A DNA stretch of 21,284 nucleotides from Amoebophrya sp. A120 (GCA_905178155.1 CAJINV010000033.1:1-21284), one strand, 5' to 3'. Counted from the first letter of the stretch, positions 1 to 21,284 are shown. Translations and numbers: made by a program. The notes: generated by a model from the sequence alone, not told the origin.

Positions 1-82
1 GTTGCGTTTGCACTTGCTTAGCATATAACTGTCACTACTAGTGCTTGTGCTACTACTTGCGCGATGCTATTTTTGAAATTGA

Positions 83-2167
83 TACAACAAGACCGGCAAC
101 GGTAAGGGAAAGGGTGCTGCTGCTAACAACAACAAGTCCAAGAAGGTGGAGACCTTGTTGCCCCCCGAGGAAGAGGATGATGAGGAGAACAACAAATCGT
201 CGAACAAGAAAAACCAGAACAAAAAGGGGAACAAGAACAACAATTCCAGTGCCGCTGCTTCTTCCAACGCGAATAAGAAGATGTGCAAGAAACAGGGGAA
301 GAAGAATAAAGAAGTAGATGCGGATCTGGACTTGGACTTGAACGACGACCCCATGGACGTGGATGAGGAAAATGCCGCTGGAGCTGGGGAGGACAAAAAC
401 GGGGAGTCGGGTACGAAAAAGAGGAAAACCTGCTCGGGCGACGCGGTGATTGCCTCCGAGGTTGCGGCCGAGGACGTAAGAATTTTTTTTTGCCTTGCCC
501 TCGCGCAAGAAGAAGAACTATTTCTGCGTGTCAGACTGCAAGTGCAAGTAGCTGCTGTATTCGGATTTTTTTTTGCATTTGTCGTTCATGCTCGACAAAA
601 ACACCGACCTAGACCCAAACGTTAACGTATACGTAAGCCAAGTCCCGAAGAAGCATAAAAATTTCAACAGGGGGCAAACGTGGCTGCGATGTCTAATTGC
701 ACTTCTGTGCTTTTGGAAATGGTGTCGAAAAACCAGTCTTTCGATCTGACGAAGTTTCTGGACAAGGAATATGCCCGCCTGGAGCTCTCCAAACTGGGAG
801 ATGAGCCAGACCAGACGGACGGTAACGACGAGGAGATCGATGGGGTGAAAAACAGCGACGGGGACGTGAACAACAAGAGTACCAGATTCGACTTTTCCAC
901 CGCGCCGAACTACAAAGAACTGATGGACCACCTCGAAGAGCAGGACCAGGAGATGCTTGCGACGCTCACGGGCATGAAGATGTACAAGTTTGCCGTCAAG
1001 CACCTGTGCGGAAACGGGCGGGCCCTCGCAACGGACTCGATGAAGAAGGCCAGCCAGGCCAAGGCGTACCAGCAACTGGTCGCGGGGAAATCGGCGAAGG
1101 AAAAATCCCTCGAGTACCTCAACCGTAAAGGAGCCAGCAGCCCGACGTGGTGCCAGGTAACAAAGCCGAACGATCCCGACGCGACGCACTACAAGCTGCG
1201 GCACCTCCTGGAACTGGACGTGCAGGCGTACGAGCTGTCCGAAGCGGAGATGACGGGAGAAACCACTTTTCCGATTTCCAAACTGCAATTTCCCTTGACC
1301 TATCCTGTGCAAAAATATCGTGCCCTTGCAAGTACTAACGTAGACCTAGAGATATAGATGCATCAGTGTCGTTTTCTGTTCTTGTGCCTTAGTCCTTGCT
1401 GTGATGCTGATAGTAGTGGATCTGGATGCGGATCTGCGTCCGGAACTGGATGCGCTCGTGGAAGTAGAACAGCAACAGCTACAGGGACTGCAAGCGCAAC
1501 TCGGTCTGGGCGTGGATGTGGATCTGGTAGTAGTTCTGATTCTGCTTCTGGATCAGGAATAGGAACGAGAAGCAGCGCGATACTTTTGCAATGCATATTA
1601 GGGACATCAAGATGGGCGGCGATTATCAGTACGTCTTTGCGCGGCACTACCCCTTCCCGAGCAAATACTTGGTCATGAGATGGAAGTGGGCAAAGAAATC
1701 CGGGGCGAGTGGAAACAAGGTCGCGGACGACAGCTTGCAAATTACGATGAAGAAATTTGTGATGGTATATTTTTGAGGTTTTCGTTTTTGGTTTTGAAAC
1801 ATGAAATTTGTGATGCGCATTTTCAACATGGACATCGACATCAGCAGCTGCGCCTGCAGCAGCAGGTGCAGCAGTAGCACCAGCAGCTACAAGCTCACGA
1901 CTGGTGTCAAGATAAGGTAGAAGTGCAAGGGCAAGAAAAATGATAAAGACACAAAAAAAAATCACTCAGCCTTCCACGGGATCGGGAGCCATGTTTTTCT
2001 ACGCCCCGATCCGACTCGAGTCGGACAAGACGTACTTGAAGACCCTTTCGAACGCCAAGGACACCTTGAACAGGGTCGAGAAGTCGGAGCAGCCGGGTGG
2101 TGGCGACAAGTCGGGTGGTGGCAGCGCGGACACGAATACCCACCTGGAGGACGACGAGGCGTTCTAA
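83..2167 (+). CDS. Multi-exon hypothetical protein, 5'-truncated by the window. Inferred exons ~83-475, 671-1311, 1596-1764 (or 1758), 1970-2167
   Basis: ORFs 146..625, 680..1357, 1591..1776 and 1940..2167 join in frame via phase-0 GT-AG introns 476-670 and 1765-1969 and a 284-nt TIR/DR intron. Codons are GC3-rich; the N-terminal part is K/N/D/E low-complexity; stop TAA at 2165-2167. No family recognised. Confidence 0.75.
476..670 (+). other. Canonical GT-AG intron, phase 0
   Basis: GAC|GTAAG ... TTCAACAG|GGG GCA AAC GTG; frames on both sides match; AT/T-rich interior. Confidence 0.8.
1308..1591 (+). other. Intron with 16-nt terminal inverted repeat and TGCA direct repeat (probably non-canonical)
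   Basis: TGCAAAAATATCGTGC (1308-1323) pairs with GCGCGATACTTTTGCA (1575-1590), 14/16. Removing 284 nt at the TGCA repeat gives ...YPVHIRDIKMGG. A GT-AG alternative (1307-1575) is also in frame. Confidence 0.65.
1765..1969 (+). other. Canonical GT-AG intron (donor 1765 or 1759)
   Basis: ATG|GTATAT ... CACTCAG|CCT TCC; phase 0, in frame with the last exon. Confidence 0.7.
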
Positions 2168-2621
2168 ACGCTAAGAGGAAAAAAGAAAATTGAACACTCA
2201 AGCTTCGGCTTCTTTGCGTGGTCGCACTTCTTCCGGTTGGAAATGAAGAAAAATCAAAATACTAGAAATTCATGTAAGATGTAAAATGAAAATGTAAATC
2301 TAAATGATAAAGATAATGGGTAAGAGTATGAAACTCAGATTTTGTTTTTTTACCCATAAATTATGCGAGTGCAAAAGAAAATGAAAAAGTAAAATTTAAA
2401 GTAGATGATGTTGAAGTTGATGATGTACATGTAGCAGTAGTTGTAGAAGAAACAGTAAATGTAAAAGCTAAAGCAAAACTAAAAGTAAATGCAAGTGAGA
2501 GTGTTTCTCTTTTGGTTTTACTCATAGTGATTGAAAACAAAAAGACAGAGATCAGGTGGCTAATCTAAATCCTGGCGCTGACGTTCATGCGCAGGCTGGT
2601 CTTGATGTAGAAGTAGATGAT

Positions 2622-2648
2622 CATCATCATCATCATCATCATCATCAT
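2622..2648. repeat. (CAT)9 microsatellite
   Basis: Nine perfect CAT units in low-complexity intergenic DNA. Confidence 0.95.
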
Positions 2649-2921
2649 GATCTTGCTGCTCAAGTTCATCTTCATCATTATGATATGGCTACGCCTTCTA
2701 CGAGTACGACTATCATGAGGGGTAAACCGCTACTGGTACTAATTCGGAAGATTCGGAATCGCAATCAATTTCAATTTCAAAATTTCAAATACAAACTCAA
2801 TACTAAAAAAATAATATGTTTATTACTATGAAAGTGAAGACGTAGATGAAGGGGAAAGCCAAAACTTTCAGGGTCACTATCAGACGAAAAAAATAGATTT
2901 TAGTTTTACTGAAAAAGAAAG

Positions 2922-4476
2922 CTCGAAAATGGAAATCCTAGTGAAAGCGAGCGCGAGCATCTTTACTAGTAGTGGTAATGTCATTGCCCATGCCTATCTC
3001 GATTCTATTCGTTGTTAAATTTAGAAAGTAATACACTCCATATCGAAACTGAGTATGGAAAGCAAATTTCAATCCAGTTCGGGAAAGAGTGCGTGTGTGG
3101 CTAGTATTGCTTTCGCGGTCCTGGTCGCGCACACACAATTCCAAAAACCAATCTGCCTACAACTAGAAATAAAAAAATCACCGACATGATAGTACAAGGT
3201 CAAGGACAGCACTACTCCATCTAGCATGAGCCAACTGCTACCCTCTTGGCCCTGGTCGCAGACCCCTGTACGCTGCATATGACTAGGCTCAAGAAGGAGG
3301 GCAGCGGCTAGAAAAGTCCCTTCGAAGCGAGCAAGAAAATCAAAGCCATCGTGTCCATCTATCCTTATCGTAAATAAAATTTTGTTTTTGTCGCTATCAG
3401 ATTCAGAAGTTCTAGTTCAAGTTTCAATCTCAGTAGTTTCAGGCACAGGCACACACAGCGTCACATATGCATAGAAATAGGCACAGGAATATCAGTATCA
3501 GTATGAAAATGAAAATGAATAGCAATAGGTATAGGTCTAAGCAGCATAAGTTTAAGTCAGCGCGGAATCAAAATCAAAAAACAAAAAGAAAACGTACAGG
3601 AAAAACAAAAATCAAAAATATGAATGAAATTATTACTATGTGCTGTTGCTAGCACATGCACAGCCACAAGCACCGCTAGTACCAGTAGCACGGCGCTACA
3701 AGTACAATTCGTAGGAGTAGGAAGTTAAAAACTGCACAGGAGACGATGACCAAATAACAGCAAGGCTAGAACGTGAACCATGGGACTGATGCAAACTTCT
3801 GAAACTAGAGCGGAATTCAAAGACGAAGACGAGCAAGTAGATTTTCAGTTTGATTTTCTATCAAGAACCAAGCCCGGCGTTAGGCGCAGGCTTTGGCTCA
3901 GGCTCGTGCTCAGCAAGAGCTAGAGCAAGCTGGAGGTGAAGCAGAAGCTCAAGCAGGGGCAGAACATGAAGTTGACGATGAGAATAAAGAATCATTTTTA
4001 GAGTTTGACGCGACTGTGAAAAACAAAAAAAACGACCCGAGGGGTGGCGCCTTCAAGCGAGCGTCATGCCCTGGTGAGTGCGGACTGAAAAAGGAAATGG
4101 CAGTCGCAGTGGCATTGATCCAGCAGCCAATGGAACTGGCTCCAGCTCCAAGTGTTCCCTCGTGTTGCAAAGCATCCCTATTCCCGATGCGACACTCAGC
4201 TGCTTGAAAAAGGTTTTGTACCCGCGGGGGCCAACAAAGATCAAAGGCTTCACTTCGTAGACTAGCTTCTGACTTCGAGATGGATTTTTTTGCCCTTTGT
4301 TTTTCTTGTTTTCGTTTTCCGATCATACTCTCGATTATGTCCCCGCGGCTAGAGTTACGCCTACGGCTAAGGTCAAACACCAAAAAGAAAAACACAAACG
4401 CAAGCTCCTCGAGTCAAGGCGTGCGCTTTTCAATTTCAAGCACAAGCTCGCGTCTACCTTTTCGCCCAAGAAATAA
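2922..4476 (+). pseudogene. Possible decayed multi-exon gene
   Basis: Higher-complexity blocks (~2922-3369, 3740-3878, 4035-4073, 4200-4476) alternate with intron-like blocks with GT..AG ends (3370-3739, 4074-4199). Candidate frames are interrupted by stops and the correct frame is ambiguous. Confidence 0.3.
4074..4199 (+). other. Intron-like segment, GT-AG with short TIR
   Basis: CTG|GTGAGTG ... CACTCAG|CTG: strong donor consensus, TGAGTG/CACTCA inverted repeat, CTG flanking direct repeat. Confidence 0.5.
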
Positions 4477-4821
4477 AAGATCAGCATCCGCACCACCACC
4501 ATCACCGCACCAACACCTACGCCATTAAATTTAAAATGCGAATGTAAGATCAAGATCAACAAGTAGCACGAGCACTAGAAGAAGAAGCAGACCTAAACTT
4601 TTTTGCTCATGCCTACACCTGCGTCTGCAACTGGATCTGGATCTGGAACTGCTACTGCAACTGCATCTGCAGCCCTAAGCTTTACTCATGCCTTTACCTT
4701 AGCGTAGCCTTACCCTCAGCCTAGCCCTAAGCTGTGGGCTGAGCCTGCAGCTGGACAAGCAGGAAGACAGAACTTTTTCTTTTTCATCAATTCCAAAAAA
4801 AATTAACTTAGTAGGAGGAAC

Positions 4822-6300
4822 AGCGGGCCCGGGCCCGGGTTCGGCCGGGCGCAACGAGATCCCCGCCTGGTGCCGGCCCTACTCCGCGCTGTCGAGCGGG
4901 GAGCAAAGCGCTGGCCCGCGTGACATGGGGCGGCTGCTGCGCAAGCTCCAGCGCCAAGGAGAGTTGGGCGAGAACTGGAAGAACGGGCCGGGCCTTGGCG
5001 CAGGTCTTCGAACAGCAGCAAGATGGGGCGCGGCGAATCCAAGACGAAAGTGTAGGAGCCGGAGGAATGTGCAGCCGATGGGCGAGATGAAGAAGAGGCC
5101 GCCCCACTTGGAGAAGCCTGACCTGCGGAAGAAGCCAACGGGGAAATGCGTCTGTGTGAAGGCCGTCGCCGCGCAATTTCTGCCCGCCGCGCCCGTGCGC
5201 GCCCCCCCGCTAGGCGCCGCGCGGGGCGCGCCCGGTTCGCGAGTCCGGGCCCACGCGGGCATGGGGCACTGGAGAACATTGCAGGCGCTGGTAGATGATC
5301 CGGAGTTTATCACAAGGTGGCCGATTTCGAAGGACCCCTGCCGCACGCGACGGCGCCCGCCTTTCCCTTCGAGTTCGATGGAGACAGCGCGGCGGCCGTC
5401 CACATGGTGAAGCCCCGGAAGCCCGTTATCCTGGGCAAGGTGCGCGCGCGCGGCCCCTTTTGCCGGTATCTGTCCGGGAAGTTGGCCGGCAATGGGCGCT
5501 TCTTTCGGCTGCGCATCGCCTCCCGCGCCCTTCCTTCGGGTCCTTCCCGTGGTCGCAACTGGCGGACGACAGCGCGTTGTTTGCGCTGCAGGCGTGGTTC
5601 GACAATGGCGCGGGCAAAAGTCGAAAGCGCGGAGCCTTTCACCGTGGAGGTGGTGAAGCACGGGCCGGCCGAGAATTAGCGGCCGAGAAGCTGTTCTGGC
5701 GGGCAGCGGCATTACCCTCAACAAGAATGGAACGGCGAAGGTGCACGTCGATGAGGGAAACTTGGGCCGAAGCGGAGCGACGGCATTGGGGGCCTGCCTC
5801 GTTTCGTCTTCTGGACCAGCCGCACGCCCGCGCCCTTCTCCAGATGCAGTGGTGGGAAAACCGGCTGGAGAAGGGGAAAAAGAACATCCGGCCCGGAGGC
5901 GGGGAAGGGGCTAGTGTGGCTACAACCGGACAAGTCGATCGTCGACCGGGACCACAAGAAACTGGCCCGCCCCGCCTTCTTTTTTTTCTGGCCACCCTGG
6001 CCCCCCCGGCGGCCGGGCCCGGGCCCCTCCGGCCGCCGTTTATTCTCTGGGCCCCACGAAAGCGGGGGGTGGCGCGGCGCCCCGTCCGTATCGTATACCT
6101 AGGCCTGCCCTGCGTCGCTCGGGCGCATTGGGCGGGCCGCTTTCGCTGCCGCGCAGGCGCCGGAAAAGCAGCAGCTATTCCGGTGCCATAGTTAGGGGGG
6201 CCACTGGCGCCGGCACTGGCACGCACAGCCACTGCTTTCCGCGCCCCCCTGCGCACGCTTCGCCGCGCGCTTCCTGTTCATGTACCTGTCGGGGGCGCCG
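4822..6300 (+). mobile_element. Degenerate LTR-retrotransposon-like integrase remnant (frameshifted)
   Basis: Abruptly GC-rich block with no intron-like filler. Collinear motif remnants in different frames: HAGMGHWRT (~5251), VADFEGPLP (5317), WFDNG (5595), HYPQQ-NGTA (5710), VWL...KKLARP (5914). They resemble the His pair, D, D and PQxNGxxE motifs and the C-terminal region of rve integrases. Boundaries approximate; no LTRs seen. Confidence 0.5.
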
Positions 6301-7071
6301 CTAGCTACAGGTGCAACGCACTGCATGCGGCAGCCCAGAAAGAAAACAGTAATCACTTCGTGGCGCCACACGCGACAGCACGGAAGCGCGTGGCAGCCCT
6401 TGCGGCCCTTGCTGCAAATATAATTTTCGCCACGCAGTTGCGTGGCAGGTGCCCTGTCGCAGGGCGTAGCAAACTTCAACTCCAACGATGGACTCCTCTC
6501 CATCGTGTCGCCCGCGGTTCCTTTCCTAAGGCCGGGCGCGCCGCAAAGTCGGACACGGACTCATGTTCGGGGGGGGGAGCTGGAGCTGGTGCTGGAGCAT
6601 CATCATTTACATTTTCATTGGGAGAGAGATGCAGGTAGGCTGTGTTGTCGTTTTTGCTTTTCGGCATCGAGTTCGAGTTTGAGATCGTGTTGCACTCGAT
6701 GGCGTTTTTTGTGAGCGCAGCAGAGAGGGCGAAGTTTACGAGTGGAGAGTTAAATGGCCATGCCGAGGTACTACGTTGTCAGCGAGCGAAACGCAATGTA
6801 TGAGACCATTCGTAAACTCTTGCTTCTGCGGTCTGGTGATTGTTGTAGTGTTGATCTAAAGTTAAAGTTTAAGTTTAGGGTGGTGGTAATACAGCAGCTT
6901 TTTTGTTCTTTAAACACGATGCCCTTTTGTGCGCTGACGCCTCGTTCTTCCGACCGACACAATCTTCGGTGAGTGCAACGCCCCGCTCACAATCTATTGC
7001 CGACGTGTTCTCTTCTACTTCTTCGCAAGAAGAAAAGATGACGGTGCTCCCTAGCCCTACTCCCACCAGGG

Positions 7072-7110
7072 GGACCGCGATAGCCACCTCCGCCGGACCG
7101 CGATAGCCAC
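7072..7110. repeat. 16-nt direct repeat with 23-nt period
   Basis: GGACCGCGATAGCCAC at 7072-7087 and 7095-7110. Confidence 0.95.
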
Positions 7111-7635
7111 TGACTACGGGTACGAGAAATGGAAGCGGGAGAAATTGGAAAATTTTTTTCGTAGAAGTAGTTCAACAGCAGAAATACATCCTCAAGGGGC
7201 CGCCAAGGGGATGAACAGCGAGGGGAGTAGTAGAAACAGCCACAAGAACACGACAGAAACAGATGTTGAGCCTAGTAGACCACATGATCAAGGAGCACGA
7301 CGAGCCGCCGGGCGAAGCAAGGCTGCACCTGTTTCACCATCTTCGATGCAGCAGGACCACGACAGTACGAGGGTGCTGAAGGAGCAGGAGCGACAAGAAA
7401 TGAATGACGAGGAGGCTGCAAATCAACGACGTCCCAAAAATGCGGAGGATGAACTTCTACTGCGAGAAAGAATAGAGTTGTCATCTTTAGAGGACGACAA
7501 CGCGCTGGGCCCGAGTGTTTTCCTGTACCCGGACTATTTGCAAAAACACATCGGGCCGTTATGGGTGGATGCGCTTACGGTTACGGCCGACGGGGTAGAA
7601 GATGCGGATCAGAACAGGAACCACTTCCTTATGGC

Positions 7636-7990
7636 GTTCTCAACTGTTACATTCTCTTTCTCAACTGTTACACGATTTCGATTTGTGATGCAAGAATGGG
7701 AAGAATGAAAGGGGCCCCCTTTGCGCGTCTTGCATGACAGATTTGGCACAGACTATAAGCCCGCGTGGCCCTTCCAGAATTTGTCATGCAGAACAGCTCG
7801 ATCGTGTTCGTCATCGTCTTCGTGTAGAAGTAGAAGTAGATCTAGATCTACATCTAGAACTAGATGACTGTGCAGCTGCAGTGGTGCTTTAACTTTTGGC
7901 TTTGCATGACAAATTGAAACTCATGTAACAGTTGAGCTTGAGAATGTAAATGTATATGTAACATTTACATTTGAGTTTGACTTTGAGAAT
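7636..7990 (+). other. Probable non-canonical intron with nested inverted repeats
   Basis: Ends GTTCTCAA / TTGAGAAT. CTCAACTGTTACA (7639-7651, 7660-7672) pairs with TGTAACAGTTGAG (7924-7936); AATTTGTCATGCA (7778-7790) pairs with TGCATGACAAATT (7903-7915). Removing 354 nt gives NHFLMAPTFLVPREQPVDF in frame. Confidence 0.6.
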
Positions 7991-10900
7991 CCCACATTCC
8001 TAGTTCCACGAGAGCAGCCAGTGGATTTCGCAGCAGGAGGCGATGATCTTCCGCGCAGTGGAAATAAACCATCAAATAAAGCGACTACTCCGTGCAAAAG
8101 TATCGCACACGCATGAAACCGACTGCGTACCATTTGCAAGACAGCGCGGTGCGGACCGACTACGACGGCCTATCCCTGGCGAGCGAGACTCTGGCCATGT
8201 CCTCAGCTGGCGGAGGGACGAGGAGGAGTGGTGCGTCTAGTAGTACATCTTCCCGTAGTTCCTCATCTTCTCCTGCGGCATCGTCCTCGGGGCCGCGTAC
8301 TAGCAGCCCGGTTCAAACTGCGACGAATTGGATAGCCGCCAAGACGCAGAAAGCTTTGGGTGATTTGGACCGCGCATTTTCGGAAAAGCATGGATTGGAC
8401 CATTCGCGGTTCAATTCATTCAAGGAGGAGAAAATGAAAACGTAAACGCCAGTAGAAGAACTGCGCGACGACAATGGCAACATGGAAGTAGGAACAGCAA
8501 CAAATGAAGAAAAAGAAGTAGAGATGAGATTAAAGCAGCATCCGTACAACCTGCACCTGCTGGAGCGCACGGGCCGTGGAACTACTGCGCATCATGATGC
8601 GAGTATTGGTGCAGGAGCGAATGGTCATGAGGGGCCAGCACGTAGCGAAAGCGAAGAAGCCTCGTTCTATCCACGACAGGAACAGTACCAGACCGCGCCA
8701 TCTCCTGAACAACAGCAAGAAGAAGTAGACTATCGGGCCCAGACTGAGGCGAGCAGCCGGCAGTTCGAGGGAATGCTGGGGTTTCGCGAGGGGCTGATGT
8801 CGGGTGCGGCGAAGGCGGTTGCGGTGGATGCGAGAAGAAAAGCGATGTATTTATACAAACAACGACGGCGCCGGGAGGTCCTCGGGTGACGGTGAGTACG
8901 GCGTCATAGGTTCTGACGCAGAAGGAGAAATAAAACGGGCTGCAGCGGAGGTGGATGAAGAATATCAAAAACGAAACGCCACCTCCTCGACCACGACCTC
9001 AAAAGCGCCAGCGCGGAAGGAGAATGGTAAGAACATGAACAATCTTAAAAACCACGGGGACAGCAAGAAGAAGAAAAGCGGCGTAGTTGTGCCACTCTCC
9101 GAGGCGGCCACCCAATTGCCCCGCGTGCTGCTACTGCAAGAAGTAGAAGAGCAAAGATCTGAGAATGTTGACAACGCTGAACCTGAAACACCACGAGCAG
9201 GGGGACCACCACCTGCTGCGACTACAGGGCCAAGTGACAAGCAAAAAACGAAAGAAAGTGTGCGTCCTGCGTGGAAGCAAGACCTGACCTACCGGTAGCG
9301 ATTTGAAATGGAAGAGCGCATGTTTGTGTCCGACTTTAGGATGAAGATGTCGAAAAACTATAACACAGCTTCGAATTGCTATTACATGTTTTGTTTTTGA
9401 AGTCAAAATGTACATGTACCGGAAAAGTTGAAACCACGAAGAAGGAGAAGCGAAGAAAAGAAAAAGGAAGACTACGATGTTCATTTAGAGGGAGACAGAA
9501 GAAGACGGGCGCTTTTTGTAAATTGAAAATTCCTCCGGGACCCTGTTACGGTGTGAAGTGAATGTGTATGAAAAGACCCTCGTGAAGTTGCCTTGTCCAA
9601 GATCTGGAAAACTAAGCGGCGTGTTTTTCTTTTTGAAGTGTCGACTACGCAGCTCCATAAATATGCAGCACGGAAGCATTTGTAGGTCTAAGTTTGTTTT
9701 TGAGACTCATTCCTCTGCTTCCGGACATCTCGTGATCTCAAAGCAGATAGAAGCTTTTTACGTTTCCTTTCGTTTGTCAGGGTGAGGCGAAGTGGTTTCG
9801 CTTCCCTAAGCGTCTTCGTCAAAAGGCGGACCTGCTAGTTGCAGCGCATGCGCAGATCAGGTTCATTCGCGCCATGTCTTCTCATCACTGTTTTGCGCGT
9901 GCAGTTGTAGATGTTGATGTAGTTGTTTTGGTTCTGGTGCATAGTGAAAGTACCCGCTTGCGTCTTCGTTTTGTCTTAGCCAGCGGCATGGATCAAGCCG
10001 CCTCCCCGGGCGGAATACAAATACGGCACGCGTGGTCGTGATAATCGTCTGTCGTTGCGAAATCGCTGTCGTGAATATCGTGCTCAGTCGTGTTGCCGCC
10101 ATCGTTCGAACAGGTCGTGGGTGCCGGATATGAAAATACACACGAAATGATCAATGAGAAACGCATTGATTTTTTTTCTGAAAATTTATCACTACAGTCT
10201 AGCCCTTCACGTTCATTTTTCACTAGAGTCATTTGCTGCGCACCAGGGCCACAAGCACAAGCAGGAGACAATCGAAGGTAGTCGTCCTCGAACGGGTCAT
10301 CGTGATCATCATCGTCGTCGTTTTCTCCTCGCTCTTGTGCCGCATGGTCCTGCCAGCTGAACTTCGCAGGCCGTATCCACGAATCGCAGGCAAAAGTCCA
10401 GACTTGTCTGGCGGGCTCTGTGGATTCGATGAGATCTTCTACGCTCCTTTAGGGCAGGGCTTAGCGTCGTGTGTAGATATGAAGGCTCCTGGTCTAGTCG
10501 TAGTCGTGCACGTTCTCACCACCAGTCGCGTCGCCGCCTCCCTGGGCGGGATAGAAGTGCAGGATGCCCTCGTGCGATCAGATCAAAATCAAGTAGGTCA
10601 GCGATCGCGATCGAAATGGTAGTGCTAATGCTAGAGCCTGGTTTCAGATATGTGCGTTTTCTGCGTCGTCGTGTGTAGTGCAAGTATAGTGAGAAGCTCC
10701 GGCTTTAAGGCGTTTTCCGTCTCGTAAGAGGCTCGTGGCATCGCATCAAGGTCGTCGAAATGTCGTTCAAACTCCGTGCGTTCGTTGCCGCTGACGGCAG
10801 AAAACGACGTCGGTTTTGCGCGGCGAGAAAATCGAAAAGAAAAAAAAATATTTGGAGATAAATATTTTTGGAACTACCGTAAGGTTGATGTATAGGAATA

Positions 10901-12528
10901 GCGTCCCCCCATACAAGAAAGTGACGGCCACGTCGAAGGCAACGCGTGTGGACAAGAAGGCGCGCGAACAATCTCAAGCTGGTGCTCACCAAGACGACCA
11001 ACCGCAAAGCTTCAGCACGCGTAGCCCGAAAGAATTAGAAGCCCAGCTGTATGGTTCAGAGGATTTGAAGGCGTCCCTCCGACGCGTTCTAGACGTGGAT
11101 AACGTCAACGTTAGCCCGTCTGAAATGGTGCCGAGCGTGAGCAATCGAATTCGCAACTTTGTCACTGCCGAAAACTTTGGTCAACAGCGAACGGATCCGG
11201 ATGGCCAGGGCTCACTTCCTGCTGGTGAACCGGGAGCAAATCACTAAAAGTGTTGTACTTTCACTGGTCCGCTTCTGTTCGTCTTTTACTCGCAGTTTTT
11301 TCTGCCATGTTTTCCACAAAATATTTCATCACTACAGAATTATATCACTAACTAAGCCTCCTATTATACACGCCGTGTTGAATGCTGTTTACATTTGCAA
11401 AAAACCCGCACCCGGAACAAAAGACGCGGACACTTCTAAGAGTAAGAAACTTTGAACTATATTTGATTTTTACGATGTCCTCGATTTGCTCAGCCTCCAT
11501 CCAGGCCCAGGCCGCCGCGACAGTTCGAGCGTCCACCTCCATGCTACCACGAGAGATACTAGAGCACTTTCAATCATATTGCCCGCCTTATCCAGGCGCG
11601 TGGTCGTGCCACAAGGGAAGTCATTCTCTTCTGTGGGTAAGACGACCAAGAACCTCCCAACCCGTGGAGGCATGACCTACTTAATATGAATCGTTCTCGC
11701 CTGCTACCCAAAGAAGTAAGTAAACCTTAAATCTTACCTGAGCCTTATCCAGGCTGCCGAGATAAAAAGTTGCAGCGCCAACAAGAACAATTTAGATGTA
11801 TTGTGCCGTGAGTCATCAATCAGGATTAGGAATAAACAAGGGACACACAATTCTTATGCGCAGCTCTAGTTTATTCCCAACACACCACGATGAAGATGAA
11901 TGAGTCACGATATAGTACATGAAATTTTGTTTTTGTTGTACCACGCAACTTCTGTGACACCAAATTTTTCCCGGGGAAGATGATCATGAGGATGAAAGTC
12001 CGTCGCTTTGTCGTTTGCTGTAACAAACGTAAAGTCTCCTGTATGTTGTTCTTGGAGGAAGATTTGCTTTTTGATGTTCGTGCGAAAAAAAACACAAATT
12101 TTTGTTGCAGAGGCATGTGGCCGCGGTAGTTTAGTGGCAAGATCCAGGTTTCGTTTCATATGTAAGACCATGAAGATGAATGGGCTTCCACCGATTTCCT
12201 TGATTAAAAGTTTTTACGGTAGGAGCAATGGCAGCCGATCCAAATGTGATCGTTGTGTGCCGTAATAAAGATCTGCTTTTTGATTGTGGTCGTGTGCATC
12301 ATGATAGTATCGTTTACGATCTTTCGTATGCCGCGTTTTGGCTTTCGAGATCGTGACGAGGATCATCACCTCGTTAAAAAAATTCCTGAACTTTAGCTTT
12401 CTCCTTGTGTGACATGAAGAACGGCGATAATTTGTTCCCCGCGTTTTTGCCGTCGACAGTCGCGTAAAGAAAAAGAAGAAATCGAATAAAAAGCAGTCTG
12501 CTAAGTTGTAGGCGTAGCAAAAATTATT

Positions 12529-15290
12529 ATGGCCCCACGACGACAAGTTCAACTTCAGATAGGGCGCGTCAAGCCCAAGATGATACCTTTGATAAAAAGG
12601 ACGCGGGTTGTTGGGTTTGGGGTAGCAGCATCTTCCTCGTCTGTGCCGTCGCTTCTGCTCCCGAGAAGACACAGTTCGAGTTACGTCGGTTTTTCCAGGT
12701 TGTGCAAGAAACCCTGTAAAAATATATCCAGCACCGCAAGGGGCGGCAAGAACTTTTCCGTCTTGCCTCCCGCAGGACGACTTGGGAAAGCACCCCGAGG
12801 GGGCCGGCTTCCCTGCCACTTCTCTACCACGGCACCAAGAAGTTCATTTTCTGTTGCGGCAGTGCAGCCGCATGTGCGCAGCTCCTGCTACAGTGTTCAT
12901 CTCCAACGAGCAGTACCACTACAACTACCTCCGTTTTTTACCGTCGGTTCTTTCCGCCAAAATTATGTTCTTCGTACGGGCGGAGCCGGAGGTGGAAGCA
13001 GTGCCGTCGGGCTCCGGAGCCTGACTTCGACGACCGCACAGCTGCTCCTAGATCACCAACAGCGACAACGAAGGCACTTCCGCGCCGAGGCCTCCGCCGC
13101 GGGGAAAAACGCCGCCTCCGTACGGGAGCGCACGCGACCCAGCGGCCAGAAAACCGACGTGCCCTCGGTGGTCGACGATCTGGTGGAGGACTTTCGGCGC
13201 AAGTTTTCCCCTTTGGGGCAGAACACGAGCAATGCGAAGCTGACCGACTTGTATCCGATTTTTGCGAAGGCGCGCACGCCGGACGACTATCACGTGTGCC
13301 TCCACGCCCTGAACATCGCCTACAACTTCGGATTGCTCCGCAACCCCATCGCAGACGTCGAGGACACTGAAGGAGCATCCGCAGGCAGAAAACCTGCCGA
13401 TAAAGCCAGCAGGGATAGAGGCGGGTCTCTTACCCTTTGCAAAAGTAGCGTCCCACCCGTACAGATTCTTGCAGTTTGGCGCGACAGATGTTCTTTCTAT
13501 ACCTGCATCTGCATGGCAAATGTGAGATTCAAATTTCACCTTTCCTTCTGATGAAATCTGAATTGCAAAAATTTATTTTACCTATTACGCAAGTTGTGCG
13601 GTAGTACTTCTGCAATGTGCATATCTTTCTCCAGCTCCACTTCAATTTCGACCTCAACCACGACCTCCGCGCCCAACACCGGGCGGCGGAGCGCCCACGC
13701 GTGCCACACGAAGGCCCTGGCCGCGTCGCGCACTCTGACTACGAGGCTGCTCGCGTTAGCCATGAACTGCCAGAAAATGAACGAAGCGGTGGACCTGGTG
13801 GCCAAGTATCGTGCGTTCCTACCGCAGCCCCCGCACGCGCAGTTGGTCTACGTGCTGCTGGGCTGCCTCCTGTACCGCAAGCAGTACCAGAAAGTCGCCC
13901 ACGTCGTCCAAGCCGTCCGCGAGGACTGGCTCCAGCAGCCGCGACCCAATTTTTACGTGCTCTGCATCGAAGCGCTGCTGCACCTGGACCCGAGCGGTAG
14001 ATCGGCCGTTCCAATCGTCCGCGACGCAGCGCGGTTCGACATCGATTTGCCGCTCAAGATTCGACTGTTGGTGGCCGAAGCAATGCTGGCGGACCGGAGC
14101 GAGGGCTTCGTTTTATCACCTCATCTGTTGCTTTGTCAACAGAATGATGGTCAAAAAGAACCTCGTCCACAAGAAGGCTCTGATTCTGCAAGTACAACCA
14201 CGGTAGAACAAGTTCTTGCCGCGGAGGAAGAAAATAATACGAGTACAGAAAATAAAGCTCCTGTGGCAACAAAAATAAATCCAGATGCTCGTCCCAGTAC
14301 GGCCGCCACGTCCACTGAGCAGCAAGAGCAGCGTGATGATCTTCAGCACACGAACAAGAGTCCCAGTTGCGAGAAAAGCATGGATAATCACTCATCAGTG
14401 ATTTTTGAGGCTGCGTTTCGCGGGCTGCTTCCAGAGCGCGAGTACGTGACTAGCGACGGAATCCGCAGAGCCATGTGCCTGTCCTGGCTGCGCCTCCTGC
14501 GGAACGACGACCCGGACTGGCATCTTCCCTTCCGACAGAGCTGGCGAAAGTATGCGAGTGCACAATTGTTGCCCGTTGTTCCTGTCAAGATTCATCTGGC
14601 ATGATCTGGTAACCAAAGCGTGCGCACGACGAATCTTTTACACATATTGCTGTCTGGGGCCGACGTCTCGATACGAGAACGTGTCATGCATGATGTTGAT
14701 AAAATTCAAACTCAAAGGCAATTATAGAGAGTGAAATTTGCGTTTTGCATGAGAAATGACAACGACGCGGAATCCTTGTGCACTCGCATAGCAACCGTCG
14801 CCTTCGCAACTGGGCCGTACAGACGCGTATCAACTGGAAATACGTCTCGGTCAGTACCACTTTTGGGAAGACTGCAGAACTTTGTCATGCACCTTACATC
14901 CAGACAGTTTCTGTTTCTGATGTAAGCGAAAACATCCGCACCTTCACATGTTGGGCTTAGGCTTCTCAGTGTGCTGGCCCATCTTCCATGGCATGTTCCA
15001 CGACCATTCCGTGCACTGATGCAAATAAATTTGCAATTTTGGCATTTTTACTACGTGTGCAAAAGAACTATTTACACATAGAGATTCTATCTTGCGTCAC
15101 GCAGATTCATGTGCAGAGTCAGAAGGTTGCAGTTTCGATCCAGCTGACCCAGTAGACGTACTATTTGCATCGCATAATGCGGCTGCCGGCCGCCTTTTTC
15201 CGTGTTGTGCCGGCTGAATTTCGGCGAGAGTGCGTAGCGCGTCTGGGCATGCACGTTTGTCCGGAGGTGGAAGAAACGGATCCCGTGTGA
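12529..15290 (+). CDS. Multi-exon protein, putatively mitochondrion-targeted and alpha-helical (possibly PPR-like). Inferred exons 12529(or 12580)-13458, ~13582-14567, 14619-14680, 14764-14849, 15156-15290
   Basis: ORFs 12529..13551 and 13594..14604 share a frame. The long N-terminus is R/S/L/G-rich and nearly free of acidic residues. The amphipathic helical core reads LTTRLLALAMNCQKMNEAVDLVAKY...PNFYVLCIEALL. Downstream exons join in frame to ...RECVARLGMHVCPEVEETDPV* (TGA 15288-15290). The function call is weak. Confidence 0.75.
13459..13581 (+). other. Intron with imperfect TIR (GT...AC; GT-AG alternative ends at 13593)
   Basis: ATTCTTGCAGTT near the 5' end pairs with AATTGCAAAAAT (13561-13572); 123 nt keeps the frame and removes the stop at 13549-13551. 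Confidence 0.6.
14568..14618 (+). other. 51-nt GT-AG intron with short TIR
   Basis: GTTGCC ... GGTAAC CAAAG; removes the in-frame TGA 14602-14604 and keeps the frame. Confidence 0.6.
14681..14763 (+). other. Non-canonical intron (GT...AC) with AACG direct repeat and TGTCAT/ATGACA TIR
   Basis: Splicing at the repeat gives SGADVSIRERRGILVHSHSNRRLRNW. No slipped register ends in AG, and the nearest upstream AG is followed by an in-frame TGA (14757). Confidence 0.65.
14850..15155 (+). other. GT-AG intron with short TIR
   Basis: TCG|GTCAGT ... GCTGACCCAGTAG|ACG TAC; phase 0; GGTCAG/CTGACC inverted repeat. Confidence 0.65.
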
Positions 15291-16068: not shown

Positions 16069-19000
16069 ATGCAGCTTCAACTTCCCTGTAGAAGTTCTCG
16101 TTGGCCAAAAAGTTCCATGTGCTGCCCCTTGTCCACAGGTTTTTTCGTTTTTGTCTTCTTTCTCACTGCCGGCGTCGAGCAAGCCGCTGGGGAGGAGGCA
16201 AGAGCATCGGCCAAGGCTTGCGTTGACACGACCTGGGCGGAGTGGTCGGCGTGCAGCAAGACGTGCGGCGCCGAGAAGGGCACGCGGCGGCGGACCAGTA
16301 ACTGCGGGACCGAGCAGAGCGAGAGGTGCGCCGCGGACTTGAGGACTTGCCCCGCGCCGGCCAACGTGGACTGCGTCCAGCAGCAGGGGAGCTGGGGAGA
16401 GTGCAGTGCCACGTGCGGGTCGGGGCTGCAGGTCCGGGTGAATCTGGTCACGCAGCAGCCGGAGGGGACGGGCACGCCGTGCGGCCCGCGGTCGGAAACC
16501 AAGCCCTGCAATACCCAAGAGTGCCCCCTGCTGGACTGCAAGGTGGGAGCGTGGTCCGACTGGACTCCTATCAATTGCAAAAATGTCTGGCTCTGGAAGA
16601 ATGCAACTTGTGCTGCTGCATTTCAATTCCAAGAAAATAAAAATCTGTATTGCATGAGCAGCAAAAGGAGGCTAATTCTTGCTACGCGGAAAGGACATTT
16701 GTCATGCGGAATAAGCATCAAGTTCAAGCAGCCCTCAAAAGATCTGTGATGCTAGGGCCTGCATCACAGACATCATGGGTCGTACAAAACGTGAATGAAA
16801 AGTCGCAGAATGTTCCAGACTCAGACATATTTGCATTTGATAACGCCCACGTGTCGGCTAAAGTGCACCACCCCGCAGCCCCTCTACCAGCGGATTGGGA
16901 ACACGTGGCAGTCCAGCGGAACCGTCGTTTCCGACTGGGGTTTTAAGATGCGGATGCGGAGAATAACCCACCCACAAAGGCTACGCGAGTGTCAGGTTTG
17001 AAATCGACACATGTTGGCGCAACTACAGGGGCTGCTGATCCACCTTATGGTATGCTCTCTAGCTGCCCAACACACTCTACTTGCTTCCAATTGGGCTTAA
17101 GTACATCATACGCCTCTACAGAGATTTTCATTTTGTGCAGTGCATTTTCTGCCATCACAACAATATTCGTCGCTTTCAAACCTGACGGCTGCATGAAAGC
17201 CGGGCGGCCAGCCTTGTCCGCGTTTGGTGGAGAAGACTGCCTGCGACTATGCGTTGCAAATATGTCTGGTTTGGATTTGTGATGCAAATTTTGAAGGACA
17301 ACAAGATCTGTGATGCGTGAGTACAAGTGGCGGTTGTTCGTGTCACGCTGGATGAAGCCAGTTTGTGGTGCGAAATACGGTAGAAGTCGCAATGAGATGT
17401 GAGAAGCTTTTGATGCGTTCGCGCCATGCAAGAGGCCGTTTTGTCATGCATTGATCACCCGGCATGTTGACAATCACAACTTCGCGTGCTTTTATCCAGA
17501 CTCCGACATAAAGTTTGTAATGGATAGCGACGGGAACGGCGCTGAGAGGTATTTTGCGGAGAAGCGAAATGCTTGGAGCGACGCAGACATCGAGAAGCTG
17601 CGTCGGTTTAATACGTATTCGGAGAGGCAGACGGATCAGCACAAGCTGGTGGAAGTGGACCGCTTTCCCACGGGAGATAACGGCCACGAATTGCCTGCCC
17701 CCTGCCCGCGGGTAGACCCTCCGCCGGTGGACTGTGTGCAAAACCCGATGACGCAGACAGGAGGGGGACCCGTTTACAAGTTGTGTGACGTAGGACTGCA
17801 CAATGGGGTCGACTACACCGATGTGGGAGGGGGAACCGATATTTTCTACCAAAATACAATATTCTTCCCCCTCCCCATATTCAAAACGAAGTTTCTCATA
17901 CTGGATGTGCGTTCACAAATAAGCTCTGTGTTGAGGTAACGGATTACGGCTAGACTCTAAGGCTGGACGAGGGGGGCGTTCAAGTCTAGTCGTTCTGCAC
18001 GGCAAGCGACTGCCCTGTAGGGCCGGCTCATGACAAATCGCTACCACAATGGAGCTGAAGCAGCTGCAGGCTGCCTTCTTGCAAGACAAATAGCTCCTGA
18101 CTGGTGTAGTTGTACACAATCAGCATCTTCACAAGCGTTCTTTTTGATTATGGGTGGGGGACTACTTCTTCACACAATATTTTTCCTGACGGAGCTAGAG
18201 CGGGGTATTGGAACGACTTTAACTGTGCAGCCGATTGTGAAGACAATCTCGAGTGTTGGCACTACTCGCAGTTGCATTGCATGGATGGAAACTGCGAATT
18301 GAAGCGCAACACCGGCGCGTGGCATAATCCCGCTCCCTGGTATTGCAAGCGCTCAGGCTTCACGAACAGCGGTGATTGTCACCAGCCAGCGTGGTGTGCG
18401 AGCCCGTGCGGGCCATTTTGCGAAGTCTATCAGTGGGCCGAAATTACAACCTTTCCCGCCAACGGCGGGCGGGTGTGCGGCACGCTGTGGCAAGTGTCGC
18501 CGGGTCCAGACGCATTGGGCTACCAGGGCCAAAAAAAACGGTGTCCGCCGGAAATTCCGTGCCGCCAGGAGGATAATAACGACTGGAGTACGTGCAGCGC
18601 GTCCTGCGGCCTAGAGGGGAAGCAGTACCTGAAGCGGCGAGTGATCACGCATCCGCAGTGGCTGACAACTGAAGCGAATCGCTGCCGGGACATACAAAAA
18701 GCGCGGTCCTGCACTCCGCCGCCTCCCCCGTGTCCGGTCGATTGCGAGATGGAGCCGTGGGGCGATTGGGGCGACTGTGACGTCTCCTGCGGCCCGGACG
18801 GCCGCCAGACGCGGACCCGCAAAGTTCGGGTGGACATGAAGGCAAATGGCTACCCCTGTCCGCCCGCGGATCAAAACACGCAGACCATCAGCTGCCAGAA
18901 CCCGCCACATTGCCCCGTCGATTGCGTGCTAGGGGATTGGACGCCGTGGAGTGACTGCTCGGCGACGTGCGGGCCGGCTCACCGGTACCGTGCCCGGGCC

Positions 19001-21284
19001 GTGGCGGTGGAAGCAGCCCACGGGGGGAACGCGTGCCCCAAAAAGGGCGACCACAAGTATCACCAAAGTCGGTTCTGCCACGAGAATCCGGTGTGTGACG
19101 AAGATTGCAAACTCTCCGATTGGACGCCCTGGTCGTCTTGCTCGGTGATACCCTGTTGCAAACTGCTAGCGCACTAGCATATTTGTCATGCTGTAGTACA
19201 GTAGGGATAACATGATAAATTAAAGTATGATATACAATGCGTATTTTATTTTACCATAAGTATATCCTCGCGGTAAGTTGTATGTAGTGAGGTCACGAAC
19301 GTTCTAATCTAGCGATCTTTTTGACATGTCTTATCCAAAACGACCGGCAGTTTTCAAGTGGCCGGAGGTGTTTCTGAGCATAAAAGATTTCCATTGATCA
19401 AGCGGCCGGGGCTTTGTTGTCAAAAAAGCCCGAGCCAATTCTATCGATTCGCGCTTGATAAAACGACGCAGCGGAGCCGGCAAAAGGGGCACCCTTCTGA
19501 GGCGCCCGCCGCATCTGTTTCCGTCGATTTGGGGCGCCCAAAAAGGGACGCCCAAAAAGCAGCACTCCGAAAAAAACAGCGAATCCGCATAGTATGGGCC
19601 TCATTTTGGCCCACATTCGGGCCTCGCAAAAGACGCCACCAAAATCCGCCATTTCAGAGGCGGACTGAAGGCCAGAAGATGCGGCATTTTGCCAAAAAAA
19701 GAACAAAAAAACCAAGTCCGCCAAAAGCAAAAAGCCAACTCGCATGCTATGGGCCCGATTTGGGGCTCCCAAGGGTCCGTCCCTGGCGCGGGCCCTGGCG
19801 GGGCCATAGCATGCGGGGAAGGTTTTTCGATTCGAAACCAAATGGAGGCCAGCTCTGGAGTGAGATTTTTAGCGACCGCCGTGCCGTCGTGCATAGCATT
19901 ACCCGCGATGGCATGGTGGGCAGAGAAGTTGCGTCTTTTTTGGCGTGAAGACAAAAAGACCGCCATGACCTCACTACCTCCGCGGACGCGGCTATTATTG
20001 GTAGATGGTGCACGTGCACCGGCTTGGAGTACTTTTTTGGATCGGTCTGCGGATGACGTAGGGTTTTATGTGTGCCTCCGGGGAACCTACCTCTTTGTCT
20101 CGGAGGGACACCAGATCCGCATTAGGTGTACGTAAAAGTTGTAGATTGGCGTTTATCTTCCCAGCATGACAATAAATATCGTTCGCTAGGAGTTTTCCGT
20201 ATGATAGGTGACCTGTGGCGACGGGGGCACGCAACGTCGCGAGCGGAAGGTACTGTCCGCGGGACCTGCCGCACAAGGAACGGCTTGCGGCCCCCTGCAC
20301 GAAGTGCGGCAGTGTCCGAGAAAGGAACCCTGCCCGATCACGTGTGCGCAATACGAGTGCCACACGCACAACTTCTCCGGGCCCCGCTACATCAGTGCCG
20401 TGACGGACCAGGCCACGGGTGATGCTGCGAACGTACTGAAGTATCGCAGGGAAAAAAGCTGGCAAAGCATATGCGTAAAAAACCAAAATGAAAATCTCTG
20501 TTGCGTATGCTGAGTAGCATGTTATGGGCTCGCCCTTTTCAAACATGTCTGCGTAGTCATTCTTACAGGATACAAGCATGCGATGCTAGCTTTTTTCTGT
20601 GTGATATGAAGCCCGCGACGAGGATAGGGACGTACCTGTACACGCTTGCAACCACGTATCGCATGAAAAAACGCTTATGAAAAAGTTGAACATGCGACGC
20701 AGAGCCCGCATGATCCAACAGGAGTGCAAGTACTAACTGTTTGAGATGCAGCATTCTTGCTACGAAAAATGTTGCACGTACAGATCGATGGTCAGTTATG
20801 TTTCAGCCGTTGCAGGGATGCGTAAGTGATTTTCTGTGGTATGTAGGAATCAAATAACGTTGTATCGTGAAAGGAGATTGAGATCATGTTTCGGAAGTTG
20901 CACCACTAATAAGGTCGTCGCAGTGAAGTAAACTTTTTGAAACGATACGTCGGATCCGTGTGACGCTTCCGTGGATGTGACGGACCCGCAGAGCTGTGAG
21001 CAAGTCTGCTGTGCTGCGACGTACTGCGTCAACGACGACGAGTGGCCCCGCTATCCCTGGACGGAGTTTGACCACATCAAAACGGTCTATTACATTGAAA
21101 AATGCCCCCCACTCCTGAAATTGCAAAAATTTGTGATGCGAAGTTTCCAAATGAAAACTTTTTATCATGCCGGCACGGGATGGCTGTCGTCGCGACCGTC
21201 TCACCTACGATCTACGCCTTCTCCTGCTGCACAAGTTCGATCCGGAAAGGGTTTAGGTTAGGTTTCAGGGTTTAGGATATCCAC
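16069..21284 (+). CDS. Secreted or surface protein with about 7 thrombospondin type-1 (TSP1, spondin-like) repeats and Cys-rich spacers; multi-exon, probably 3'-truncated by the window
   Basis: Hydrophobic signal-peptide-like segment (STGFFVFVFFLTAG). Repeated VDC...WxxWxxCSxTCG...RxR...GxPCP motifs in ORFs 16027..16749, 18110..19177 and 20208..20513. The splice 19144|20208 reconstitutes WSSCSVTCG. Start could be ATG 16069 or 16117. Confidence 0.88.
16570..16842 (+). other. Intron with ~30-nt TIR (probably non-canonical)
   Basis: TATCAATTGCAAAAATGTCTGGCTCTGGAA (16569-16598) pairs with TTCCAGACTCAGACATATTTGCATTTGATA (16813-16842), 26/30; 273 nt keeps the frame. Confidence 0.7.
16991..17199 (+). 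other. Intron containing an 18-nt near-terminal inverted repeat
   Basis: GTCAGGTTTGAAATCGAC (16991-17008) pairs with GTCGCTTTCAAACCTGAC (17169-17186), 17/18. The TSP1 frame resumes at PGGQPCPRLVEKTAC (17200); GT-AG 16996-17199 is in frame. Confidence 0.65.
17253..17449 (+). other. Intron flanked by ATGC[G/A]TTG direct repeat
   Basis: Removing 197 nt joins ACDYAL to ITRHVDNHNFACF. The 5' end TTGCAAATATGTCTGG resembles the TIR of the 16570 intron. A GT-AG alternative (to 17434) exists. Confidence 0.6.
19145..20207 (+). other. 1063-nt canonical GT-AG intron with GGTGA direct repeat
   Basis: TCG|GTGATA ... GATAG|GTG ACC TGT GGC; restores the CSVTCG motif. Confidence 0.85.
19284..19977. mobile_element. 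MITE-like insertion inside the long intron
   Basis: Perfect 12-nt inverted repeat GTAGTGAGGTCA (19284-19295) / TGACCTCACTAC (19966-19977). Interior is GC-richer than the flanks with A/T runs and a 12-bp internal IR (19741-19752 / 19804-19815). No target-site duplication seen. Confidence 0.5.
20441..20610 (+). other. Intron with 24-nt TIR and TGAAG direct repeat
   Basis: GTATCGCAGGGAAAAAAGCTGGCA (20441-20464) pairs with TGCTAGCTTTTTTCTGTGTGATAT (20584-20607): 19 Watson-Crick pairs, 4 G-U, 1 mismatch. 170-nt removal is in frame. Confidence 0.7.
20656..20948 (+). other. Non-canonical intron (GT...AC) with ACGT direct repeat and ACGTATCG/CGATACGT TIR
   Basis: 293-nt removal gives TYLYTLATTSDPCDASVDV in frame. 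Confidence 0.7.
21248..21276 (+). repeat. Degenerate telomere-like (TTTAGGG) repeats
   Basis: AGGGTTTAGGTTAGGTTTCAGGGTTTAGG, about four imperfect units, followed by non-repeat ATATCCAC. Confidence 0.6.

What the first reader, a model, noticed from the sequence alone, without database searches (positions are those of the whole stretch)
1308..21171. Window-wide class of introns defined by terminal inverted repeats and short direct repeats rather than GT-AG
Seen: at least ten interruptions in four gene loci have self-complementary ends of 6-30 nt (1308, 7636, 13459, 14568, 14681, 14850, 16570, 16991, 18041, 20441, 20656). Many also have 3-5 nt DRs (TGCA, AACG, TGAAG, ACGT). Three more have a DR only (TAAAC 6813/6911, CGCAT 10162/10341, ATGCC 21102/21167). 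Cutting at the repeat restores the frame in all but the 16991 case, with ends such as GT-AC, AT-TA and CT-AG. Known: IR/DR introners with non-canonical ends are described in Amoebophrya, and to my knowledge their splicing mechanism is unresolved. Inference: a structure-guided splicing system coexisting with ordinary GT-AG introns in the same genes.
Basis: partly seen in the sequence, partly recalled or inferred. Interest (0 to 1): 0.8.

Follow-up and report, generated by a model that had tools for sequence, protein, structure and literature searches.

The report
Amoebophrya transposon introns cut by ruler
These are the already published transposon-derived odd introns of the marine parasite Amoebophrya; transcripts lack each element plus exactly five bases without normal splice signals, likely because a relaxed spliceosome measures from a few letters at the element's ends, which would make the open question of how they are removed directly testable.

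Summary
The window encodes an Amoebophrya sp. A120 protein (790/790 identical). Two RNA-like runs from one sample give 10 joints in two genes, and 9 of 10 have no GT-AG, GC-AG or AT-AC register.

Each intron equals a TAY…RTA inverted-repeat element plus 5 nt of a decayed 5-bp target duplication. The only cut fitting all ten lies 1 nt before and 4 nt after the element (chance 0.049).

Evidence argues against strict hairpin guidance: arms show no G·U excess (112 vs 130 A·C), three spliced introns pair weakly, and changed end letters break terminal pairs. They spare intron U+2, A+3 and A−7 (window 6/6; related loci 12/14). Best reading: a relaxed spliceosome, candidate branch A at −7 (about 50%).

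The class is Farhat et al. 2021. This scan already noted the −1/+4 register on other pieces of this genome. I found the end asymmetry in neither the papers nor the scan notes searched.

The parts
12529..15290 (+). Gene with 3 introner introns; 654-aa ORF after RNA-defined joins; no Pfam family in the two exons scanned
13430..13627 (+). Intron 198 nt = element 13431-13623 (TAC..ATA) + 5; duplication TCTCT/TCTTT; ends TT..TT; weak arms
14550..14794 (+). Intron 245 nt = element 14551-14790 (TAT..ATA) + 5; GAAAG/GCAAC; GT..AA in the common register
14827..15180 (+). Intron 354 nt = element 14828-15176 + 5; ACGCG/ATGCG; weak arms; follows a 32-nt exon
16069..21087 (+). Thrombospondin type-1 repeat gene, first 790 of 1142 aa of P0002 (Amoebophrya sp. 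A120); continues beyond the window
16568..16846 (+). Intron 279 nt = element 16569-16842 + 5; ACTCC/ACGCC; high-copy family
16981..17199 (+). Intron 219 nt = element 16982-17195 (TAC..ATG) + 5; AAGGC/AAAGC; seen in X2 only
17247..17530 (+).
17846..18183 (+). Intron 338 nt = element 17847-18179 (TAC..ATA) + 5; TTTTC/TTTTT; end motifs match those of relatives
19148..20210 (+). Intron 1063 nt = element 19149-20206 (TAC..ATA) + 5; perfect GGTGA; the only joint with a GT-AG register (19145-20207); holds a nested repeat at about 19281-20004
20441..20610 (+). Intron 170 nt = element 20442-20606 + 5; perfect TGAAG
20656..20951 (+). Intron 296 nt = element 20657-20947 + 5; CCACG/CGTCG; the ACGT repeat (293 nt) is not used
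21088..21284 (+). Left part of an element (TAT start) of a 308-312-nt family; RNA leaves at 21087; right end lies beyond the window
7630..7996 (+). Element (TAT..ACA) with perfect TTCCT duplication; predicted 372-nt intron gives HFLVPREQPV, in register with the 81%-identical relative P0001 (HFLVLREQPV); host locus has frameshifts and an in-frame stop
   Evidence: no RNA cover
1301..1597 (+). Element (TAT..ATA), arms 78% complementary, duplication decayed (2/5); predicted 302-nt intron keeps the frame, as do two other cuts; unverified
   Evidence: no RNA cover, no homolog

Best explanation
These are small TAY…RTA inverted-repeat elements with 5-bp target duplications that are missing from Amoebophrya transcripts as the element plus five bases, and they are likely cut out by a relaxed spliceosome that measures from a few end letters rather than reading GT-AG or a perfect hairpin. 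Shown: intron length is element + 5 in 10 of 10; the duplication is 5 bp with no evident target preference; a related family sits in both orientations; and one cut (1 nt before, 4 nt after the element) fits all ten joints. Inferred: a transposase (not identified) inserts the elements. The 5' splice site would read N-U-A-Y, keeping the U+2 and A+3 of ordinary donors while +1 is free. The A of the 3' RTA at intron position -7 would serve as branch point, with the 3' cut counted a fixed distance from it and no AG needed. Because the element is symmetric, either orientation supplies both signals, and because the cut removes exactly one duplication length, a new insertion anywhere would be silent, which would let the elements spread through exons. 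The hairpin may help bring the ends together but would not define the cut.
For: RNA joints and frames. Flank identity is 41/50 at the 5-nt offset versus 12-18/50 at eight other offsets; the common register has chance 0.049. In related loci, 82 of 111 paired copies have a perfect 5-bp duplication and 100 have >=4/5, while other lengths sit at background. Only 13 of 181 oriented elements have any GT/GC..AG register, and positions +1, -2, -1 show no clear G/A/G enrichment. Orientation is 26 vs 21. In the ten RNA introns U+2, A+3 and A-7 are each 10/10, while their pairing partners vary: +4 is C in 4, -5 is G in 1; 7630-7996 has C at -6. Independent test in loci: 7 of 8 end changes (p=0.035), or 12 of 14 with a looser scan, fall at +4, -5 or -6. 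G·U 112 vs A·C 130 in arms. All nine top A120 non-canonical classes in Farhat Table S4 have T at +2, and A120 keeps nearly all spliceosomal proteins with U2, U4, U5 and U6 but no detected U1 RNA. Fixed branch-to-end distances (branch A at -6 and -8 by my count from their motifs) occur in Yarrowia, Trichomonas and Giardia.
Against: No lariat, snRNA or knock-down data: the spliceosome step is inferred. The register rests on three informative joints and one RNA sample. On the best ungapped arm axis alone the same offset fits only 7 of 10; all ten fit only when ends are anchored on the TAY/RTA letters. A codon-usage test of the register had no power at positions 1-3, and at position 5 it favoured the upstream base in 5 of 6 cases, against the rule, though the join used was biased that way. 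No strand asymmetry at -9, where U2 pairing would favour U. One confident locus has C at +2, and one doubtful call changes A-7. The strand caller was right in 4 of 5 confident window tests. Losing both G+1 and the terminal AG is a larger departure than in the tunicate case.
Confidence: 0.5

Rival explanations
1. Structure-guided excision: the paired arms form a stem with a 1-nt 5' and 4-nt 3' overhang that a non-spliceosomal nuclease and ligase, or an altered spliceosome, recognises, releasing a circle as in euglenid nonconventional introns.
For: 7 of 10 introns have arm duplexes reached by <=1 of 200 shuffles. The offset from the arm axis fits in 7 of 10. Euglenid introns are a precedent (passages). 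U1 snRNA was not detected in A120.
Against: 13431, 14828 and 20657 pair weakly (36, 64 and 7 of 200 shuffles as low) yet are spliced. Terminal pairs are predicted at <=0.1 in 4 of 10. No G·U excess. Four of ten have a C·A mismatch at the third terminal pair.
Confidence: 0.25
2. A sequence-specific protein (for example a domesticated transposase-like or novel U1-replacing factor) binds the shared end motif TAT-N4-TGCAAA or the internal TTGTSATGC repeat on the RNA and sets both cuts at fixed offsets.
For: The end motif is shared across 236 elements in several sequence clusters. Farhat et al. suggest a divergent protein subunit.
Against: The motif is the same on both arms, and the 9-mer occurs on both strands (168 sense, 131 antisense), as expected for a DNA-level transposase site. 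No candidate protein was sought or found.
Confidence: 0.17
3. The cut floats within the 5-nt duplication from intron to intron (each uses whichever register suits it), so the common register is a coincidence.
For: Chance of a common register is 0.049, not negligible. Farhat's Fig. [quoted passage not shown] 19145-20207 could be spliced as plain GT-AG.
Against: Three joints bound the register from both sides, and Table S4 has T at +2 in all nine top classes.
Confidence: 0.06
4. The joints are reverse-transcriptase template-switch artefacts at direct repeats beside hairpins, or DNA-level excisions, not splicing.
For: Short repeats plus hairpins are the recalled signature of that artefact. X1 and X2 are only guessed to be RNA and come from one sample.
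Against: Five of 10 joints have <=2 nt of microhomology, and longer repeats nearby are ignored at 4 of 10. Every joint restores the frame. The DNA-like run X5 passes unbroken through 8 of the 10 introns (only 15 of 106 joint rows were shown). X1 and X2 have no depth over 1250-9920, unlike a genomic library.
Confidence: 0.02

Closest known systems
Introner elements among the non-canonical introns of Amoebophrya sp. A120 (Farhat et al. 2021, PMC7789003)
   Same: Same organism (P0002, 100%); TAT-starting inverted repeats; short direct repeats at the boundary (5 bp in their Fig. S19 legend); repeated families; non-GT-AG ends.
   Different: The paper's text gives 3-5 nt repeats and variable splice positions. 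Here the duplication is uniformly 5 bp, one register fits all joints, and the end letters are conserved asymmetrically. Its figures (3, 4, S19-S23) were not visible to me and may already show the register; the S23 legend says IRs lie '1-5' nt from splice sites.
MITE-derived introners of Aureococcus and Micromonas (as described in PMC7789003 and PMC11282704)
   Same: Non-autonomous TIR elements with target duplications that act as introns.
   Different: Aureococcus introners keep canonical splice motifs; here only 13 of 181 related elements have any GT/GC..AG register.
Euglenid nonconventional introns (PMC11282704, passages)
   Same: Non-canonical ends, terminal pairing with a fixed offset, duplication-like repeats, unknown machinery.
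   Different: Their CAG/CTG pair at +4..6 / -8..-6 is absent here. Circular release is shown there and untested here.
Non-GT/AG introns of the tunicate Fritillaria borealis (bioRxiv 10.1101/2025.08.15.670264)
   Same: Genome-wide non-canonical introns handled by a modified spliceosome: the precedent for the favoured mechanism.
   Different: Fritillaria keeps defined terminal dinucleotide classes and duplicated U2AF subunits; here +1, -2 and -1 are free.
Fixed branch-point-to-AG introns of Yarrowia, Trichomonas and Giardia (Irimia and Roy 2008, PMC2483917)
   Same: The 3' end sits a fixed short distance from the branch A.
   Different: They have a strong CTRAC branch motif and a terminal AG; neither is present here.

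Membership tests
Amoebophrya A120 introner elements | Located in A120 genes | tested here: met
   P0002, named Amoebophrya sp. A120, 790/790 identical
Amoebophrya A120 introner elements | Transcript-supported intron without GT-AG | tested here: met
   9 of 10 joints; one sample
Amoebophrya A120 introner elements | 8-20 nt inverted repeats at the ends | tested here: met
   Strong in 7 of 10, decayed in 13431, 14828 and 20657
Amoebophrya A120 introner elements | 3-5 nt direct repeat overlapping the boundary | tested here: met
   41/50 identity at 5 nt; 82 of 111 perfect in relatives
Amoebophrya A120 introner elements | IR starts TAT and runs to an A stretch | tested here: met
   5' TAT 6, TAC 4; 3' ATA 9, ATG 1; A at +13 and +14 in 9 of 10
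Amoebophrya A120 introner elements | Repeated family | tested here: met
   Relatives for 16569, 17248, 17847, 7630 and 21088 among 138 loci; none there for the other eight; very high summed depth at 16409-16785
Non-autonomous TIR DNA transposon (MITE) | Constant-length target duplication and TIRs | tested here: met
Non-autonomous TIR DNA transposon (MITE) | Cognate autonomous transposase | not tested
   No genome held; two ORFs in the 1058-nt element had no Pfam hit
U2-type spliceosomal intron | GT/GC..AG termini | tested here: not met
   1 of 10; 13 of 181 in relatives
U2-type spliceosomal intron | Conserved U+2 and A+3, and a conserved A near the 3' end | tested here: met
   10/10 each; end changes avoid them in 12 of 14
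U2-type spliceosomal intron | U2-pairing branch motif (yUnAy, recalled) | tested here: inconclusive
   U two bases before A-7 in 3 of 10; no arm asymmetry there
U2-type spliceosomal intron | Lariat product and snRNP dependence | not testable with these tools
   Only contigs mapped; the raw-read run X7 hit repeats only
Euglenid nonconventional intron | CAG/CTG pair at +4..6 / -8..-6 | tested here: not met
   Position tables
Euglenid nonconventional intron | Release as a full-length circle | not testable with these tools
   Needs RNase R / back-splice reads

The most novel reading that the evidence does not exclude
Amoebophrya A120 runs a spliceosome that has dropped G+1 and the terminal AG altogether: it reads N-U-A at the 5' end, branches at an adenosine 7 nt from the 3' end and counts to the cut. 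The symmetric TAT…ATA ends of many transposon families encode both signals in either orientation, making every insertion a perfect intron.
Probability: 0.4. Interest if true: 0.85.

Novelty: already known. Interest (0 to 1): 0.45.

Why it matters
Most introns of this organism are non-canonical, and the papers read leave their removal open. A fixed register converts an apparent chaos of end dinucleotides into one rule (N-U-A-Y…A-N6). The asymmetric conservation names one base, A-7, as a candidate branch point, which lariat sequencing can confirm or kill in one experiment. If true, it shows how far a spliceosome can relax and how a transposon can become harmless at any exonic site. It also gives annotators a rule for placing boundaries that motif-based aligners misplace.

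Tried and rejected
No whole genome is held. The run search listed no holder on record as RNA. I laid 4 of the 9 runs (X1, X2, X5, X7). X7 gave 86 partial reads on repeats only, and X5's repeat joints filled the 15 of 106 rows shown. No RNA cover over 1250-9920, so 1308, 6813 and 7636 are untested by RNA. No homolog for 659-1297 among longer proteins; two weak hits to unrelated long proteins in the representative library. The TIR pattern had no match in viral contigs. No Rfam family in the window. Codon-usage test of the register: no power, with an adverse 5/6 at position 5. The ungapped-axis test gave the offset in 7 of 10. A nested 'Russian doll' reading of 7630/7648/7669 was rejected: relatives show one family with an internally repeated long TIR. 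DR-guided cutting rejected. The unconstrained element scan was noisy (84 control vs 458 real calls in 60 loci) and was used only after filtering to TAT-class ends. In one search, 36 of 152 matches had no partner or too little flank, and 14 of 111 were set aside as likely compound or mispaired (97 kept) before the first strand scoring. In one search, 41 of 62 deviant calls overlapped exact calls and were dropped; 12 of the remaining 21 had a confident strand. The two calls with changes at both ends (L049, L057) may be false; both are counted in 12 of 14. Not in print: six paper searches showed no paper stating the register or a branch point; Roy et al. 2023 (Curr Biol) and the Farhat figures were not seen. 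One scan look-up for the asymmetry returned nothing.
Full report
Source. A unique exon of the thrombospondin gene retrieved P0002, named Amoebophrya sp. A120, at 100% identity. A second locus retrieved an 81%-identical A120 protein, P0001. No whole genome is held.

RNA evidence. Nine runs were listed, none on record as RNA among the holders; I laid four. X1 and X2 (contigs, one sample, guessed RNA) match the window with no listed differences at likeness 98, skip discrete segments, and have no depth over 1250-9920. X5 runs unbroken through 8 of the 10 skipped segments and is broken by repeats in the other two, so it behaves as DNA. One search lists 12 joints; I dropped two with sides under 30 nt that link repeats. 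Nine of the remaining ten are in both runs, and eight carry the tool's flag 'between: not known'. The joined thrombospondin frame is 790/790 identical to P0002 and continues with the residues encoded by the loose end at 21087. The gene model may derive from similar RNA, so it checks my joins, not the biology. The other gene gives an open 654-aa frame. Nine of ten joints have no GT-AG, GC-AG or AT-AC register.

Two of nine testable starts fit; the rest are 1 to 195 nt off. Of three DR-only introns, one is contradicted (21102), one is unsupported (10162) and one is untested (6813). The two GT-AG rivals in covered sequence are unused. The locus at 6754-9298 has frameshifts and an in-frame stop and is probably a decayed copy; the locus at 83-2167 is unverified.

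Anatomy. Every RNA intron equals an element starting TAT or TAC and ending ATA (once ATG), plus five bases (10 of 10). The five bases before and after each element match at 41 of 50 positions, against 12-18 at eight other offsets. I chose the element ends with the joints in view. For 17847 and 17248 relatives support the ends; for weak-armed 13431 and 14828 they rest on the triplets and the duplication. Mismatches inside the duplication show which copy the mRNA keeps: 13431 requires a crossover after base 4 or 5, while 14551 and 17847 require it at or before base 4. The only register that fits all ten puts the intron start 1 nt before the element and its end 4 nt after. Independent random registers would agree in 4.9% of 200,000 trials. 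On the best ungapped arm axis alone this offset fits 7 of 10. Farhat's Table S4 lists nine top A120 classes, all with T at +2, as the rule predicts.

Relatives. Of 111 paired copies, 82 have a perfect 5-bp duplication and 100 have at least 4/5; repeat lengths 1-4 and 6-10 are at background. A wider scan gave 236 TAT-class elements, 181 of them with a confident strand by a codon score that was right in 4 of 5 confident window tests. Only 13 of 181 have any GT/GC..AG register, and +1, -2, -1 show no clear bias. The family lies in both orientations, 26 versus 21. Insertion therefore does not depend on splice dinucleotides.

Hairpin or letters? Seven of ten introns have strong arm duplexes, three are weak, and terminal pairs are predicted at >=0.7 in four. 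Arm mismatches show no G·U excess: 27 vs 20 in the window and 112 vs 130 in loci. Each of the three terminal pairs has one fixed and one free partner: U+2, A+3 and A-7 are 10/10, while +4, -5 and -6 carry all six changes in the window. I formed this idea on the window and tested it on the loci: 7 of 8 changes conform under the strict filter (p=0.035) and 12 of 14 under a looser one with 1 control call. The exceptions are one C at +2 and one doubtful call at -7. Both A>G and T>C occur on the sense strand, so a simple strand mutation bias does not explain the pattern (inference). Against: no asymmetry at -9, and an underpowered codon test that leaned against the register at position 5.

Mechanism. 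Shown: geometry, duplication length, orientation freedom. Inferred: transposase-driven insertion, and removal by a spliceosome that keeps U+2 and A+3 and a branch A at -7 but ignores G+1 and AG. That U+2 and A+3 matter to ordinary spliceosomes, and that C is tolerated at +2, is recalled and comes from no call. A120 retains nearly all spliceosomal proteins and U2, U4, U5 and U6 but no detected U1 RNA. Fixed branch-to-end distances exist elsewhere, and tunicates show a retuned spliceosome. I put this at 0.5, hairpin-guided excision at 0.25, a dedicated end-binding protein at 0.17, a floating register at 0.06 and artefact at 0.02.

Papers seen. PMC7789003: abstract, passages, sections 11, 12 and 16 whole, supplement passages and part 3 of 5; figures not held, and Fig. 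3, 4 and S19-S23 may bear on the register. PMC12130899, PMC11282704, PMC2483917 and PMC11453091: passages. Other titles were seen as search listings only.

Earlier scan notes. Nineteen notes match, eight were shown, and several report the same -1/+4 register on other pieces of this genome. My register was recorded before I read them. The relaxed-spliceosome, branch-adenosine wording of one note shaped what I tested next. They are unreviewed and are not counted as support.

Verdict. The feature is real and the class already known. The value lies in the corrected boundaries, the fixed register and a single-base prediction for lariat mapping. Interest 0.45.

Noticed in passing
window 10342-11984: Unbroken RNA-like contigs at depth 51-81 versus 6-12 for the neighbouring genes; longest ORFs about 150 aa, no Pfam hit for the two scanned.
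   Followed up: partly
window 19281-20004: A high-copy repeat starting TATGTAGTGAGGTCA with a matching arm near 19967-19980 is nested inside the 1063-nt intron and removed with it; no clear duplication.
   Followed up: partly
window 21170-21284: A second repeat with telomere-like GGTTTAG units interrupts the 21088 element where the window ends; the gene continues beyond.
   Followed up: partly
window 6754-9298: Probable decayed copy of an A120 gene (P0001, 81%): a short tandem duplication near 7070-7110, a frameshift at 8084-8112 and an in-frame stop at 8443-8445.
   Followed up: partly
window 7630-7996; L025, L034, L051, L079: Element family whose TIR is built from repeated TTCTCAACTGTTACA-like units, mimicking nested insertions.
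   Followed up: yes
window 14793-14824: 32-nt exon between two introner introns.
   Followed up: no
window 4700-6640: GC-rich stretch (0.63-0.67) with long ORFs, no RNA cover and no Pfam hit for three ORFs.
   Followed up: partly
window 7684, 7781, 14882, 16699, 17441, 19183 and related loci: Internal motif TTGTSATGC recurs in unrelated element families on both strands (168 sense, 131 antisense in 164 elements); perhaps a transposase-binding site.
   Followed up: partly
window 476-637: GT..AG candidate intron flanked by a 7-nt direct repeat (ACGTAAG); none of four GT-AG joins tried reads through to 1297.
   Followed up: partly
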